A stretch of DNA of 64,000 bases from a phage (OZ346212.1), one strand, 5' to 3'; shown: positions 57,857 to 62,367, counted from the stretch's first letter. Numbers and translations are program-made. The notes: a model not told the origin generated them from the sequence alone.

Positions 57857-57932
57857 TCGGTCTCCTGTCTTGTTAAGATGAAGGTATTATTTCACACAGG
57901 GTTGGCGTTGTCAACACCTGTGTGCAAGAAAA

Positions 57933-58328
57933 TTACTGAAACAGTGCGGATAAATTACCTTCTGGTGGGAACTTATCTGCCAAAAACGGTGTTAGCACAG
58001 TAGCCTTCTGAAGATCTGGGGTCCACTCGTTGTTCAGAACATCCCAGTAGTACGCAATGTTGCTGTGTGGGTGCCGCATTACGAACTTTTTCCCTTCGTA
58101 GTCGTCTGAAACCTCTACAGAAGAAATAACAACAGAATCTTCAAGGGTTTCTTCATAGAAAGATCCCCCTTCAAATTTCCAACGAGATGCAAGAGCCCCT
58201 GCCTTGAACGCTGCAGATAACGGACTGTCGGCAAGAACATACATTTCTTGCACTCTGTCGCTGCGATCTTTGCTTCTTACGTTGTATACAGTATCTGAGC
58301 TATACTCAACACGGTATAGGCTTACCAT
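57933..58328 (-). CDS. small protein, family B paralog (131 aa)
   Basis: SD GAGGAGG; ...RHPHSNIAYYWDVLNNEWTP... aligns with ...HPDSRVKHYWNSRTKTWTP... of 60140..60538. Confidence 0.65.
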   Translation of the reverse strand: MVSLYRVEYSSDTVYNVRSKDRSDRVQEMYVLADSPLSAAFKAGALASRWKFEGGSFYEETLEDSVVISSVEVSDDYEGKKFVMRHPHSNIAYYWDVLNNEWTPDLQKATVLTPFLADKFPPEGNLSALFQ

Positions 58329-58660
58329 TACCGCACCTCCTCAATAACTTCCACATCTGAACCTACCACAAATGCAAAAGGACAGGTTTCATGAAAGACA
58401 TCTGGATCGCCGCCAAGCTTGCTAACAATCTCTCCACCACTAATAAACACAAGCTCACCGATATTCATCAGATTGCTGAAATAGTAACCATAATGATTAA
58501 AGAATGCAGCAGGGTCAGGTAGACTGGTAGCCTCAAGCACTACATCGGTTGAGGTTACTTTCTTATCATAACCTCTCGCCTTTTGAGATGCAAGATCTGC
58601 AGAATCCTCAGGAGACCGGAGATGCACAGGAATTGTTTCACCAATAAAGCGTACTTTCAT
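58328..58660 (-). CDS. small protein, family C-like (110 aa)
   Basis: ATG 58660 preferred; C-terminus ...VGSDVEVIEEVR resembles family C endings. Confidence 0.55.
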   Translation of the reverse strand: MKVRFIGETIPVHLRSPEDSADLASQKARGYDKKVTSTDVVLEATSLPDPAAFFNHYGYYFSNLMNIGELVFISGGEIVSKLGGDPDVFHETCPFAFVVGSDVEVIEEVR

Positions 58661-58664
58661 ATTA

Positions 58665-58928
58665 TCACCCAACAACCATAGCTTCAAAAGGAGTCATGAA
58701 CGAATAAACGGCATCATCATCTGCTTCAGGGAATGCTCCCAAAGACTTCATATCTGAACCCTTGACAAATACAAGGTTTTGATCAAAGGCTTCTTGGGGG
58801 TCAATCCGATACATATTTCGTAGAATATCGCTTACCTCCTCATCAAGAGGTGAGTATGCTGTGCACGTTTTTCCGATCAAGCTTTGAGAATCAGGGTATC
58901 CACCTGAAGTTTTAAAATAAACAATCAT
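58665..58928 (-). CDS. hypothetical small protein (87 aa)
   Basis: SD GAGGTGA upstream. Confidence 0.6.
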   Translation of the reverse strand: MIVYFKTSGGYPDSQSLIGKTCTAYSPLDEEVSDILRNMYRIDPQEAFDQNLVFVKGSDMKSLGAFPEADDDAVYSFMTPFEAMVVG

Positions 58929-59019
58929 ATAGTATCACCTCTGGTAAGAGATTGGGATTCCTTTCCCACAAATAATTACAAATCTTCCTTATCGAGGAAG
59001 TATGCTAATCCAAGCAGGA

Positions 59020-59289
59020 TTATTCCTCTACAATCTCATACACATCAGGAGTTACAATCAACTCTTCTCCGTTACCCGGTGCAACAAACACCACCAAACC
59101 TTCAGGTGTGTGCTTTTTAGCCATCTCGATAACATCTTCTCGCAGAGCTGGCTCCATCAGATCAAAACCTTCACCCAGGGCATCACGAACCACCTTCATA
59201 TAGTCAACTGGTTGTGCTTCAACAATCATGCCTTCAACCAGTCCACAGTTTTTGTCTGCCAGCTCAGTTTTGAATAATTTAATTTTCAT
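59020..59289 (-). CDS. small acidic protein, family A paralog (89 aa)
   Basis: SD GAGGAGAC; MKIKLFKTELA...ALGEGFDL. Confidence 0.6.
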   Translation of the reverse strand: MKIKLFKTELADKNCGLVEGMIVEAQPVDYMKVVRDALGEGFDLMEPALREDVIEMAKKHTPEGLVVFVAPGNGEELIVTPDVYEIVEE

Positions 59290-59426
59290 TTAGAGGTCTC
59301 CTCAATTATTTGATATTAATAGCCGTAACCTAACACATTAACTACAACTGCGATTGCAAACATAATTTCAAAGCATGCAATCTCTACATTTGGGACTAAT
59401 TTCTTAATCACACCCATTGTAGCACC

Positions 59427-59747
59427 TCATTCTCCAAAGTCAATCTTTACTTTGCCTTTCCCCTTACCTTTCTTTCCACCGCATTTAGCCAGCTGACGTG
59501 CTGCAACATCTACCATACGGTCAGTTGCCTCGTAAGCATCACTGCCTTTAGCCTTGGCAATAACTTCTTTTCCAGAATTGTCAAAAATGAACGCCATAAC
59601 TTCCTGGTGATCATTTTCAACTTTTACACTTACACGTGCATAGTTAACAGAGGGATGTAAACGCTCCAGCTTGGACATTTTGCGGGAAATAAAAGATACC
59701 ATACCTTCTGTGATTTCTACATTGTTGCCAGTGATTTCAATTTGCAT
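59427..59747 (-). CDS. ribosome hibernation promoting factor / RaiA (S30AE family) homolog (106 aa)
   Basis: MQIEITGNNVEITEGMVSFISRKMSKLERL...VKVEND...GSDAYEATDRMVDVAARQLAK parallels bacterial HPF/YfiA along the whole length; Lys/Gly-rich C-terminal tail. Confidence 0.75.
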   Translation of the reverse strand: MQIEITGNNVEITEGMVSFISRKMSKLERLHPSVNYARVSVKVENDHQEVMAFIFDNSGKEVIAKAKGSDAYEATDRMVDVAARQLAKCGGKKGKGKGKVKIDFGE

Positions 59748-59830
59748 AACGTGTTCCTTTTAAGGAAGAGGGAATAACTATCTCTCTTTGAAAACAATGA
59801 TACTAAATCTGAAGCGTTGTGTCAACAGTT

Positions 59831-60122
59831 TTTACAGCTTGTTGTCGATAGTTTTTAAAATATCCACAGCAAGATCTGCCATTTTTCGAACATACTCTGC
59901 AAACTCAACAGGATCCTTGATCAAAGAATTCACAGGGTCGTACCCTAGAGCGTTTAAAATGGCTGCAGCATCTACAACCTTCTCATCATTTGCGAAGATC
60001 TCTCCGTCAAACTTGTAGGTCTATTTTGAGTCAACCTTAGCAGAGCAGGGTTTGTCCATGCTTGTTACACCATCGTCTTTAAACTCTCCTGCGTTATCAA
60101 TATTTAGAATTAAATCCATCAT
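59831..60122 (-). pseudogene. disrupted small gene: in-frame TAG then a second stop and a frame change
   Basis: ATGATG at 60122 with SD GTGAGGTG; 33 codons to TAG (60021..60023); 26 more codons to TAA; protein-like sequence continues in the +1 frame to the stop at 59831. Confidence 0.4.
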
Positions 60123-60139
60123 GGTGACACCTCACTGTT

Positions 60140-60538
60140 TCAGTTTAGCTTTTCTTCAACAACCCCATAACTTGGGGCAGAGTCAAGAGCTTTCTGGTTT
60201 AAAAGTGGCGTAGCAGAATCTGCAAACGGTGTCCAAGTTTTTGTTCTGGAATTCCAGTAATGCTTCACTCTGGAATCTGGATGCACTATAACAAAAACTT
60301 TTTCACTTGTCAACACATTAATTTCTTCTACACCCTTGCTGATAATTTCTCCGTCATAGCCCCCAGTCTGGTATCCTTCGTACCAGGTTCTTGCATAGGC
60401 ATAGCCAGCCTGCCAGCATGCAGCCTCCTCCGAGGTGGAGACTACGTAGAAGTCTTTCTCAAATTCCGGAATACGCCCTTGCTTTACGCTCCAAGCTCCG
60501 CGAATTTTCATTGTTACTTTGAAAAGCTTGTTCTTCAT
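60140..60538 (-). CDS. small protein, family B paralog (132 aa)
   Basis: Coupled to upstream gene; aligns with 57933..58328 product. Confidence 0.65.
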   Translation of the reverse strand: MKNKLFKVTMKIRGAWSVKQGRIPEFEKDFYVVSTSEEAACWQAGYAYARTWYEGYQTGGYDGEIISKGVEEINVLTSEKVFVIVHPDSRVKHYWNSRTKTWTPFADSATPLLNQKALDSAPSYGVVEEKLN

Positions 60539-60539
60539 A

Positions 60540-60794
60540 CTACCGCTCTACAATCTCTACGTCTGTTCCTACACCGAAGGCATAGTAATGTTCTTCCCCA
60601 AAGTAATACTTGGGGACACCCGCTTTGATCAGATCTAACCCGCGAATAAATACCACACCGTGTGATACAGTGGAATGCTTCTGACGCACAGGATCGTTGT
60701 CAGGCAACCATTCAAAGTACACCGCAGGTACAACCTTTCCCTTCAGGAAGGATTGTCCCAAGTAGACGTTAGAATCAAGAATTTTAACCTTCAT
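60540..60794 (-). CDS. small protein, family C paralog (84 aa)
   Basis: SD GGAGGAC; MKVKILDSNVYLGQSFLKGKVV aligns with MMKVKVLDSSFYIGQEPLVGKVF of 60784..61011. Confidence 0.65.
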   Translation of the reverse strand: MKVKILDSNVYLGQSFLKGKVVPAVYFEWLPDNDPVRQKHSTVSHGVVFIRGLDLIKAGVPKYYFGEEHYYAFGVGTDVEIVER

Positions 60795-61011
60795 TCTCGT
60801 CCTCCACTATCTCTGCATCCTCACCAAGGGCAAAGTTGTAGGTCCACTGGCTGTCAAAGCAGTCCTGAGATGCACCAGCGGCAATAAGATCTGCACCTTT
60901 TATTTTTAAAAGGTCAGGATAATCTTCGTTAGGGATAGCGGTAAACACTTTCCCCACTAAGGGCTCCTGACCAATATAGAAGCTTGAATCTAAAACTTTA
61001 ACTTTCATCAA
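60784..61011 (-). CDS. small protein, family C paralog (75 aa)
   Basis: SD GAGGGAG; overlaps downstream gene start by 11 nt. Confidence 0.65.
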   Translation of the reverse strand: MMKVKVLDSSFYIGQEPLVGKVFTAIPNEDYPDLLKIKGADLIAAGASQDCFDSQWTYNFALGEDAEIVEDENEG

Positions 61012-62083: not shown

Positions 62084-62367
62084 TTTCTAGTCCTCTTCTT
62101 AGATTTTTGGGGAGAAACGCTTTCTGCAATACGAGACAGACGTTCTTCTGAAGCCTTACCTACTCCAGGTTTTTTGAGTGGATTATCTTTATGACCACAA
62201 TCCAACTGGATATTGGATACCTCTCCAACTTTGTAAGTCAATTCTAGCAAAAGGTTGTCGTCCTTGTCAAATGTTTTTACGATAAATTTTTTATCGTTCT
62301 CCTGAACTTCATATCTGGTACCTGCAGTATACAGCATGGTGCCATCAGCATAGGATATCCAGATCAT
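62080..62367 (-). CDS. hypothetical basic small protein (95 aa)
   Basis: SD AAGGAGG; coupled. Confidence 0.6.
   Translation of the reverse strand: MIWISYADGTMLYTAGTRYEVQENDKKFIVKTFDKDDNLLLELTYKVGEVSNIQLDCGHKDNPLKKPGVGKASEERLSRIAESVSPQKSKKRTRK

What the first reader, a model, noticed from the sequence alone, without database searches (positions are those of the whole stretch)
59427..59747. Phage-encoded ribosome hibernation factor (HPF/RaiA) homolog among small takeover genes
The 106-aa product parallels bacterial HPF/YfiA along its whole length and has a short Lys/Gly-rich tail. It is embedded in a - strand array of small, translationally coupled genes. A phage copy could stabilise or inactivate host ribosomes during infection, for example to protect 70S ribosomes from defence nucleases, or bias translation.
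Basis: partly seen in the sequence, partly recalled or inferred. Interest (0 to 1): 0.7.

Follow-up and report, generated by a model that had tools for sequence, protein, structure and literature searches.

The report
Phage rV5-type ribosome hibernation factor homolog
This gene is a real phage copy of the bacterial ribosome hibernation factor HPF, but it has been annotated since the rV5 genome was deposited and was studied in a 2019 paper, so only its role in infection is still open.

Summary
The 106-aa ORF at 59427..59747 (- strand) is real. It belongs to the HPF/YfiA (Ribosomal_S30AE) family. It scores 56.7 bits on Pfam PF02482 (cutoff 23.7) and passes TIGR00741. It is 43% identical to E. 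coli HPF, and its predicted fold overlays solved HPF structures at 1.1-1.6 A.

The window is an rV5-like Vequintavirus, 99.3% identical to phage nomo. The gene occurs in 119 phage records and is already annotated as sigma-54 modulation factor, HPF or RaiA. Mizuno et al. 2019 (PMC6375957) described it and expressed it in E. coli. They did not find it on salt-washed ribosomes.

- That negative result is uninformative. Host HPF and RMF were also missing from the ribosome fractions, although both were in the extract.
- The gene is under strong purifying selection (dN/dS 0.03-0.13).
- It has its own conserved sigma-70 promoter, so it is not coupled to the upstream gene.
- It keeps only 9 of 15 ribosome-contact signature positions, against a cellular median of 13.
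- It carries a 16-residue tail with a net charge of +4.

Best reading: an early-expressed, diverged factor that occupies the HPF/RaiA site on idle host ribosomes. Already known; function unresolved.

The parts
59797..59825 (-). Sigma-70-type promoter (TTGACA, 17-nt spacer, TATCAT) about 50 nt upstream of the HPF start codon
   Evidence: It matches 11 of 12 consensus positions. The same site is annotated as 'Sigma70-type promoter; P144' in the rV5 record. The -35 block AAACTGTTGACAC is invariant in five Vequintavirus genomes and in the divergent L002 lineage. That lineage has TTGACA-17-AATTAT at the same place. No transcript data were available, so activity is inferred.
59755..59759 (-). Shine-Dalgarno-like AAGGA, 7 nt upstream of the ATG
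   Evidence: Read directly from the sequence. The AAAAGGA stretch is conserved in five Vequintavirus genomes.
59427..59747 (-). Coding sequence of the phage HPF homolog (106 aa plus stop codon), equivalent to rV5 ORF144
   Evidence: The protein is 97% identical to rV5 ABI79209 (P0001). dN/dS is 0.03-0.13 across the genus.
59478..59747 (-). S30AE/HPF core domain, residues 1-90, with beta-alpha-beta-beta-beta-alpha topology
   Evidence: The AlphaFold2 model has mean pLDDT 85 and more than 90 over most of the core, with elements E2-8, H14-30, E34-44, E47-56, E61-68 and H71-90. Foldseek top hits are V. cholerae HPF 4hei (rmsd 1.1 A) and E. coli HPF 2rql and 6h4n_x.
59430..59477 (-). Disordered Lys/Gly-rich C-terminal tail, residues 91-106 (GKKGKGKGKVKIDFGE), net charge +4
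   Evidence: Model pLDDT is about 46-52 here and the net charge is +4. Tail length varies through indels in the purine-rich run: YN3 is 2 aa shorter, and Murica and APCEc02 are truncated by 1-nt indels. The divergent lineage has a different basic tail, SKGIDKRTAKWDY.
59316..59417 (-). 33-codon ORF starting 9 nt after the HPF stop codon. Its C-terminal half is hydrophobic, suggesting a small membrane peptide. It probably lies on the same transcript.
   Evidence: It matches phrog_15151, of unknown function. It is annotated as ORF145 in rV5. No gene is called at this position in the L002 lineage.
59020..59289 (-). 89-aa acidic protein of unknown function, the last gene of the putative HPF transcription unit. 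It follows HPF in both lineages.
   Evidence: It matches phrog_11868 of unknown function and has no Pfam hit. It is 58% identical to the gene directly after HPF in L002. It shows no similarity to HPF, although several records label it 'sigma 54 modulation factor'.
58984..59000 (-). Terminator-like hairpin in the 91-nt gap after the 89-aa gene
   Evidence: This is a consensus-scan match only, and the count of such sites in the region is no higher than in shuffled sequence. Its role as the end of the unit is inferred.

Best explanation
This is the Vequintavirus (rV5-type) homolog of the bacterial short ribosome hibernation promoting factor. A gammaproteobacterial-type hpf gene was captured before the known rV5-like lineages split, and has been kept under strong selection since. 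It heads a small transcription unit (promoter P144, then HPF, a 33-aa peptide and an 89-aa protein). The promoter is read by host sigma-70 RNA polymerase, so the gene is expected to be expressed early. The protein keeps the HPF fold and the central basic residues of helix alpha-2 (R84, K88, K92), plus K23, K26 and D76. I therefore infer that it docks where HPF and RaiA dock, in the decoding channel of the 30S subunit of ribosomes carrying no mRNA or tRNA. Several other contact positions have changed (Y30 to L, T53 to F, H55 to F, K80 to V, K89 to G). The tail is 16 residues long and lysine-rich, against about 5 residues in E. coli HPF. I infer binding that is more electrostatic and salt-sensitive. 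A tail of roughly RaiA length may reach toward the RMF site. The likely result is idle ribosomes held as protected 70S monomers, with host RaiA/HPF excluded and no 100S dimers formed. Shown here: family membership, fold, promoter conservation and purifying selection. Inferred: ribosome binding, the site of binding, and the consequence for infection.
For: Family and fold:
- Pfam PF02482 scores 56.7 bits against a cutoff of 23.7.
- TIGR00741 scores 56.8 bits against a cutoff of 40.9.
- The best PDB sequence hits are E. coli HPF entries, at E about 4e-15.
- Identity to E. coli HPF is 43%.
- The AF2 model has pLDDT 85, and Foldseek places it on HPF structures at rmsd 1.1-1.6 A.

The gene is kept for a function:
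- dN/dS is 0.03-0.13 while dS reaches 0.78.
- It is present in 119 of the 121 phage records that carry this region.
- A syntenic lineage has it at 64% identity, where neighbouring genes are 28-82% identical.

Expression signal: the near-consensus promoter is conserved across both lineages and is annotated in rV5.

Contact residues: the phage protein keeps 15 of the 19 columns that are at least 70% conserved in 141 homologs. It keeps K26, E61, D76, R84, K88 and K92 of the contact set described for E. coli and E. hormaechei HPF in preprint 10.1101/2025.10.07.680626.

Published expression data: in E. coli the rV5 protein was expressed continuously from overnight pre-culture to OD 1, left 70S profiles unchanged and did not raise 100S. 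That fits a non-dimerising, non-toxic binder. Host RaiA was detected on ribosomes from the two other expression strains but not from the strain expressing viral HPF. This is a weak single-replicate hint of competition for the shared site.
Against: The only published binding test did not find the protein on 70S or 100S ribosomes. The ribosome-contact signature is eroded: 9 of 15 positions against a median of 13, with only 11 of 141 homologs scoring as low, and 5 of 8 basic positions retained. The score against the HPF equivalog model NF007780 is 65 bits, well below its 125-bit cutoff. Two of the changed positions (51, 53) and position 61 (E. coli E60) also differ between the two phage lineages, so that face may not be constrained for the ancestral contacts. 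No data from infected cells exist in the library searched. The RaiA observation rests on a few spectra from one preparation each.
Confidence: 0.5

Rival explanations
1. Anti-hibernation factor. The phage protein binds weakly and reversibly to the HPF/RaiA site, and its tail blocks the RMF site. It would displace the host's tight-binding hibernation factors, dissolve or prevent 100S dimers, and return stored ribosomes to translation. This would let the phage grow in starved or stationary-phase cells. Mizuno et al. suggested essentially this idea.
For: The eroded contact set and salt-labile behaviour are what a low-affinity competitor would show. Its expression caused no increase in 100S. Host RaiA was absent from ribosomes only in the strain expressing viral HPF. 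The tail is much longer than that of E. coli HPF, and the RaiA tail is reported to run toward the RMF site. The authors' own suggestion is in PMC6375957.
Against: There is no direct evidence of binding or displacement. A weak binder should not outcompete RaiA unless it is made in large excess. The 100S fraction was small in all samples at OD 1, so any loss of 100S could not have been seen. The tail has no sequence similarity to the RaiA tail.
Confidence: 0.2
2. Neofunctionalised fold. The protein no longer binds ribosomes and uses the HPF scaffold and basic tail for another target. That target could be a phage or host RNA, bound through the aromatic patch on the beta-sheet, or a host protein.
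For: The protein was absent from ribosome fractions. Y30, T53, H55, K80 and K89 are lost, and M51, F53 and F55 appear on strand beta-3. The clade is isolated: in an exhaustive search of 1.8 billion representatives, nothing outside its own cluster exceeds 44% identity. The score is below both equivalog cutoffs. There is a faint RRM_9 match at E=0.1.
Against: The most conserved rRNA-contacting residues are retained (K23, K26, D76, R84, Q85, K88, K92) along with the D-x-Y-x-A-x-D motif. Aromatic or arginine residues on the sheet face could still stack on 16S bases. The negative binding test is uninformative because host HPF and RMF were also lost.
Confidence: 0.2
3. Host shut-off. The protein inactivates host ribosomes globally by blocking the A and P sites, as RaiA does, to stop host protein synthesis early in infection.
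For: It is an HPF/RaiA-family member, and the family's bound factors occupy the 30S A and P sites and stop translation. It has an early-type promoter.
Against: It would block phage translation equally, because there is no known way for it to tell phage mRNA from host mRNA. E. coli carrying the gene grew under continuous arabinose induction from overnight pre-culture to OD 1, with normal ribosome profiles. That argues against a potent inhibitor.
Confidence: 0.07
4. Neutral passenger. The gene is a recently captured host gene with no role in the phage.
For: Phages do pick up host genes at random, and this gene sits among many small genes of unknown function.
Against: dN/dS is 0.03-0.13 with dS up to 0.78. 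The gene is retained in essentially every genome of the genus and in a lineage that is 36% diverged at the protein level. It has a conserved dedicated promoter. It is only 43% identical to E. coli HPF, so the capture is old.
Confidence: 0.03

Closest known systems
rV5 ORF144 protein (ABI79209), the viral HPF of Mizuno et al. 2019 (Nat Commun 10:752, PMC6375957)
   Same: It is the same gene: 97% identical, in the same position, with the same promoter P144 and the same tail.
   Different: The window's allele has one extra Asn (GNNVEITE, as in E. coli HPF, against GNVEITE in rV5) and carries R22 and V34 in place of H22 and A34.
E. coli short HPF (YhbH; PDB 2rql, 4v8h, 6h4n, 6y69)
   Same: It is the best sequence match among solved structures and the second-best fold match after V. 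cholerae HPF. Identity is 43% and the topology is the same. The N-terminus MQ-x-x-ITGNNVEITE is nearly identical, and K23, K26, D-x-Y-x-A-x-D, R83, Q84 and K87 are shared.
   Different: Contact residues Y30, D51, T53, H55, K80 and K89 are replaced by L, M, F, F, V and G. There is a one-residue insertion in the beta3-beta4 loop. The tail is 16 residues instead of about 5. The pI is 9.0 instead of 6.5. It scores below the NF007780 equivalog cutoff. No 100S promotion was seen on expression.
E. coli RaiA (YfiA, protein Y)
   Same: It has the same fold and the same expected binding site. It also has a C-terminal extension of more than 10 residues beyond helix alpha-2. In RaiA that extension heads toward the RMF site, and RaiA-bound ribosomes stay as 70S.
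   Different: Sequence similarity is much weaker than to HPF (NF007654 22.8 bits against a 158-bit cutoff; PDB E about 0.02). The RaiA tail has a net charge of -4 and the phage tail +4.
Other phage-encoded S30AE proteins (phrog_8990; Cronobacter phage GAP32, Xanthomonas phage XaC1 and others)
   Same: They are phage-borne members of the same family, so capture of hibernation factors by large phages recurs.
   Different: They are separate acquisitions. The rV5-type proteins form their own PHROG (12469, labelled unknown function) and match phrog_8990 only weakly, at 33 bits. Mizuno et al. place GAP32 elsewhere in the tree.

Membership tests
HPF/YfiA (Ribosomal_S30AE, PF02482 / TIGR00741) superfamily | Profile match above the curated cutoff over the full domain | tested here: met
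   PF02482 scores 56.7 bits against 23.7, covering profile positions 1-83 of 88. TIGR00741 scores 56.8 bits against 40.9.
HPF/YfiA (Ribosomal_S30AE, PF02482 / TIGR00741) superfamily | Beta-alpha-beta-beta-beta-alpha fold | tested here: met
   The AF2 model has pLDDT 85 with the expected element order. The top 38 Foldseek PDB hits are all HPF, RaiA or protein Y chains, and the best rmsd is 1.1 A. This is a predicted structure, not a solved one.
HPF/YfiA (Ribosomal_S30AE, PF02482 / TIGR00741) superfamily | Conserved rRNA-contacting residues (basic face of helix alpha-2, K23/K26, aromatic residue at position 30, sheet-centre motif T53 and H/V62, D75) | tested here: inconclusive
   9 of 15 signature positions are kept (cellular median 13; 11 of 141 homologs score as low), and 5 of 8 basic positions are kept. 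R84, K88, K92, K23, K26 and D76 are retained. Y30, T53, K80 and K89 are not, and nor is H55, which was read off the alignment rather than scored.
HPF/YfiA (Ribosomal_S30AE, PF02482 / TIGR00741) superfamily | Binds the 30S decoding channel of vacant ribosomes | not testable with these tools
   The published test on the rV5 protein was negative in ribosomes washed in 500 mM NH4Cl. Host HPF and RMF were also absent from those preparations while present in crude extract. The test therefore does not discriminate.
Short HPF equivalog (NCBIfam NF007780; acts with RMF to form 100S) | Score above the equivalog cutoff | tested here: not met
   65.2 bits against a cutoff of 125.
Short HPF equivalog (NCBIfam NF007780; acts with RMF to form 100S) | Promotes or stabilises 100S dimers | not testable with these tools
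   Mizuno et al. saw no discernible effect on 100S when the rV5 protein was expressed. The cells were at OD 1, where there is little 100S in any sample.
RaiA/YfiA equivalog (NCBIfam NF007654) | Score above the equivalog cutoff | tested here: not met
   22.8 bits against a cutoff of 158. NCBI's naming of the phage protein as 'RaiA' is therefore not supported at equivalog level.
RaiA/YfiA equivalog (NCBIfam NF007654) | Extended C-terminal tail beyond helix alpha-2 that is incompatible with RMF binding | tested here: inconclusive
   A 16-residue tail is present, against 23 in RaiA and about 5 in HPF. Its composition is unrelated (net +4 against -4). Its path on the ribosome is unknown.
Long HPF (with C-terminal dimerisation domain) | Second, C-terminal dimerisation domain; total length about 180-190 aa | tested here: not met
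   The protein is 106 aa and the Pfam scan found no second domain. The tail is disordered in the model.

The most novel reading that the evidence does not exclude
The phage protein is not a hibernation factor in the usual sense. It would be a counter-hibernation or ribosome-custody factor: a deliberately weak, lysine-tailed occupant of the HPF/RaiA site. It would evict host RaiA/HPF and block RMF, so the phage can wake or keep ribosomes in starved cells. It might also shield the decoding centre from nucleases during infection. The remodelled contact face (L30, M51, F53, F55, V81, G90) would then be an adaptation and not decay.
Probability: 0.2. Interest if true: 0.65.

Novelty: already known. 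Interest (0 to 1): 0.3.

Why it matters
Phage-encoded translation factors are a small and poorly understood class, and this is one of the few found in cultivated, easily handled E. coli phages. The gene's existence, family assignment and a first functional test are already published, so the finding itself is not new. The open question is what a strictly lytic phage gains from an early-expressed hibernation-factor homolog. The gene has been under strong selection across the whole genus, so the answer would say something about how phages manage the host ribosome pool, especially in non-growing cells. It also gives specific residues and a tail to mutate.

Tried and rejected
1. A second HPF gene. 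Several records label the 89-aa gene at 59020..59289 'sigma 54 modulation factor'. It has no Pfam hit and no similarity to HPF. The label traces to an off-by-one annotation in phage APCEc02. Rejected.

2. Tight translational coupling of HPF to the upstream gene. Rejected: there is an 84-nt gap holding a promoter and a ribosome-binding site.

3. The neutral passenger idea. Rejected by dN/dS.

4. A functional partner among the neighbours, for example an RMF analogue. All neighbours fall in PHROGs of unknown function and have no Pfam domains. Nothing can be said.

5. A structured 5' UTR element. A hairpin AGAGGG/CCCTCT exists in rV5 and Aya but is weakened in the window. It is significant against shuffles in only one of four sequences. 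Not pursued.

6. Literature after 2019 on phage HPF. Six searches found nothing beyond Mizuno et al.. Polikanov 2012 and the V. cholerae HPF paper were not held, so contact residues were taken from a 2025 preprint.

7. The search for homologous proteins returned only the phage clade. The exhaustive representative search was needed to reach cellular homologs.

8. I did not identify the organisms of the closest cellular homologs. Mizuno et al. already place the E. coli phage proteins among gammaproteobacterial HPFs.

Full report
**Observation**

The ORF at 59427..59747 on the - strand is real. It starts with ATG and encodes 106 aa. Every profile method assigns it to the HPF/YfiA family:
- Pfam Ribosomal_S30AE (PF02482) scores 56.7 bits against a gathering cutoff of 23.7, covering profile positions 1-83 of 88.
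- NCBIfam TIGR00741 (HPF/YfiA family) scores 56.8 bits against 40.9.
- The best matches among solved structures are E. coli HPF entries 2rql, 4v8h and 6h4n, at E about 4e-15.
- BLASTP against E. coli HPF gives 43% identity over 92 residues.

A single-sequence AlphaFold2 model is confident (mean pLDDT 85). It shows the beta-alpha-beta-beta-beta-alpha topology, with residues 91-106 disordered. Foldseek places the model on V. cholerae and E. coli HPF at 1.1-1.6 A rmsd, and the top 38 hits are all hibernation-factor chains.

**What genome this is, and whether the gene is known**

The window is an rV5-like Escherichia phage of the genus Vequintavirus. It is 99.3% identical to phage nomo over the 2.5 kb tested.

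The protein is encoded in 119 phage records. There it is variously annotated as 'sigma 54 modulation factor', 'ribosome hibernation factor', 'hpf' or 'RaiA'. In the original rV5 record it is ORF144, and the promoter in front of it is annotated as P144.

Mizuno et al. 2019 (PMC6375957) listed it among virus-encoded ribosomal proteins and placed it among gammaproteobacterial HPFs. They expressed the rV5 protein in E. coli. They detected it in crude extract but not in purified 70S/100S ribosomes, and saw no effect on 100S. I found no later work on it in the library. The finding is therefore already known.

**Re-reading the published negative result**

The ribosomes in that study came from cells at OD600 = 1 and were pelleted through a 500 mM NH4Cl cushion. 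The supplementary protein lists give three relevant facts:
- The crude extract of the strain expressing viral HPF contained host HPF, RMF and RaiA (Supplementary Data 5).
- The ribosome preparation from that strain contained none of them (Supplementary Data 4).
- Host HPF and RMF were absent from the ribosome lists of the two other strains as well.

A preparation that does not retain the genuine E. coli HPF cannot show that the phage homolog has lost binding. The authors themselves list salt stripping and growth phase as possible reasons.

One further detail is worth noting. Host RaiA was detected on ribosomes of the bS21 and bL12 strains but not on those of the viral-HPF strain. That is what competition for the shared site would produce. 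It rests on a handful of spectra from single preparations, so I treat it only as a lead.

**Anatomy around the gene**

The gene lies in a long run of small same-strand genes; phage nomo has 33 consecutive CDS there. It is not coupled to its upstream neighbour. An 84-nt gap holds a promoter, TTGACA-17-TATCAT (11 of 12 consensus positions, 59825..59797), and an AAGGA ribosome-binding site.

The -35 block AAACTGTTGACAC is invariant across five Vequintavirus genomes. It is also invariant in a divergent lineage (L002), where a TTGACA-17-AATTAT promoter sits in the same place.

Downstream there is a 33-codon ORF starting 9 nt after the HPF stop codon, then an 89-aa acidic protein, then a terminator-like hairpin in a 91-nt gap. 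The pairing of HPF with the 89-aa gene is kept in the divergent lineage. All neighbours are of unknown function. Early expression by host RNA polymerase is inferred from the promoter and was not shown.

**Is the gene functional in the phage?**

Yes, as far as sequence evidence can tell. Across ten Vequintavirus alleles, dN/dS against the window is 0.03-0.13, while dS reaches 0.78.

A second rV5-like lineage, known only from metagenome and run assemblies (L002-L004) and absent from the phage collection, carries a syntenic copy at 64% identity. Its neighbouring genes are 28-82% identical. The gene was therefore captured before these lineages split and has been maintained since.

An exhaustive search of 1.8 billion cluster representatives finds nothing outside the phage cluster above 44% identity. 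The phage clade is old and isolated.

**How far has it drifted from a working HPF?**

I aligned the phage protein with 141 homologs from the exhaustive search. It keeps 15 of the 19 columns that are at least 70% conserved, including G7, T13, K23, L27, E44, G59, D70, Y72, D76, R84, Q85 and K92.

It departs at several positions that a 2025 cryo-EM preprint (10.1101/2025.10.07.680626) identifies as ribosome contacts in E. coli or E. hormaechei HPF. Numbering below follows E. coli HPF.

| E. coli HPF residue | Contact described | Phage residue |
|---|---|---|
| Y30 | stacks on A790 | L |
| T53 | m2G966 | F |
| H55 | uS9 C-terminus | F |
| K80 | alpha-2 basic face | V |
| K89 | alpha-2 basic face | G |

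On a 15-position signature the phage protein scores 9. The median for the homologs is 13, and only 11 of 141 score as low. It keeps 5 of 8 basic positions. It falls well below the equivalog cutoffs for both HPF (65 bits against 125) and RaiA (23 bits against 158).

The protein is nevertheless more basic overall, with pI 9.0 against 6.5 for E. coli HPF, helped by a tail of net charge +4. Aromatic or arginine residues on the sheet face could still stack on rRNA bases. The changes are therefore not necessarily losses.

The tail is conserved in sequence within the genus. It is prone to indels in its purine-rich run: YN3 is two residues shorter, and Murica and APCEc02 are truncated by 1-nt indels that may be sequencing errors. 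The divergent lineage has a different but also basic tail, which ends K-W-D-Y where this one has K-I-D-F.

**Mechanism**

I commit to the following, at about 0.5 overall. The protein is made early. It docks in the 30S decoding channel of ribosomes that carry no mRNA or tRNA, as HPF and RaiA do. Its binding relies more on electrostatics and is more salt-labile. It holds those ribosomes as 70S monomers, excludes host RaiA/HPF, and does not form 100S dimers.

Steps shown here are family membership, fold, selection and promoter conservation. Steps inferred are binding, the binding site, and the benefit to the phage.

The rivals are:
- **Anti-hibernation competitor (0.2).** This overlaps with the best reading but stresses reactivation.
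- **Neofunctionalised fold that no longer touches ribosomes (0.2).**
- **Global host shut-off (0.07).** This is disfavoured because the gene is tolerated under continuous induction with normal ribosome profiles.
- **Neutral passenger (0.03).** This is refuted by dN/dS.

**Verdict**

The finding is already in the databases and the literature. Interest is modest. It is not a discovery.

Noticed in passing
window 59832..60122 (- strand); stop codon at 60021..60023: The gene just upstream of HPF (96 aa in phage nomo, nomo_105, phrog_12029) carries an in-frame stop at codon 34 in this window, where nomo has Trp. It is a natural nonsense allele, a sequencing error or a pseudogene. The rest of the reading frame is identical.
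   Followed up: partly
window 59020..59289 (- strand): This 89-aa gene is labelled 'sigma 54 modulation factor' in nomo, naswa, magaca, nom and other records. It has no S30AE match and no similarity to HPF. The error starts in phage APCEc02, where the label sits one gene off (APCEc02_082) while the true HPF (APCEc02_083) is 'hypothetical'.
   Followed up: yes
phage records OR062525, OR062530, MT884009, MT884011 (matches to window 59430..59747): In these records the HPF homolog is annotated 'ATP-dependent protease La type I'. Nothing in the sequence supports that label.
   Followed up: no
18 GenBank records named 'Campylobacter phage' (MG0656xx), matching window 58500..61000 at about 96%: Records with Campylobacter jejuni given as host are about 96% identical in DNA to E. 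coli rV5-like phages. This suggests mislabelled hosts or contaminating phages in that data set.
   Followed up: no
window 60140..60538 and 57933..58328 (- strand): These two 131-132-aa proteins are paralogs (both phrog_7379) and both match a single gene in the L002 lineage. Many of the small neighbours also share an MK(I/V)K start and an acidic (E/V)(I/V)VE-type end, suggesting families of duplicated small acidic proteins.
   Followed up: partly
window 59721..59726 (codons 8-9 of the HPF gene): The window's allele reads GNNVEITE, as in E. coli HPF. rV5-type alleles and the divergent lineage lack one Asn (GNVEITE). This loop contacts 16S rRNA near A964 in some species, so a one-codon indel is tolerated there.
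   Followed up: partly
window 60285..60313 and 62241..62270 (- strand): Two further near-consensus sigma-70 promoter matches (11 of 12) lie inside ORFs rather than in gaps. A fourth, at 57886..57914, lies in an intergenic gap. The total promoter-like count in the region is no higher than in shuffles, so only the strongest sites stand out.
   Followed up: no
window 59763..59787 (- strand, 5' UTR of HPF); L007 1462-1482: rV5 and Aya have a 6-7-bp hairpin (AGAGGG...CCCTCT) between the promoter and the ribosome-binding site. In the window it is weakened by a substitution and a 2-nt insertion. It is significant against shuffles only in Aya.
   Followed up: partly
protein P0007: A 1160-aa protein in the representative library matches the phage HPF in 8 separate stretches. 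It appears to be a tandem array of S30AE-like domains. Its origin is unknown.
   Followed up: no
Mizuno et al. 2019, Supplementary Data 2-5: Host RaiA appears in the ribosome protein lists of the bS21 and bL12 expression strains. It does not appear in the list for the viral-HPF strain, although it is in that strain's crude extract. This may hint that the viral protein displaces RaiA, but it comes from single preparations with few spectra.
   Followed up: partly
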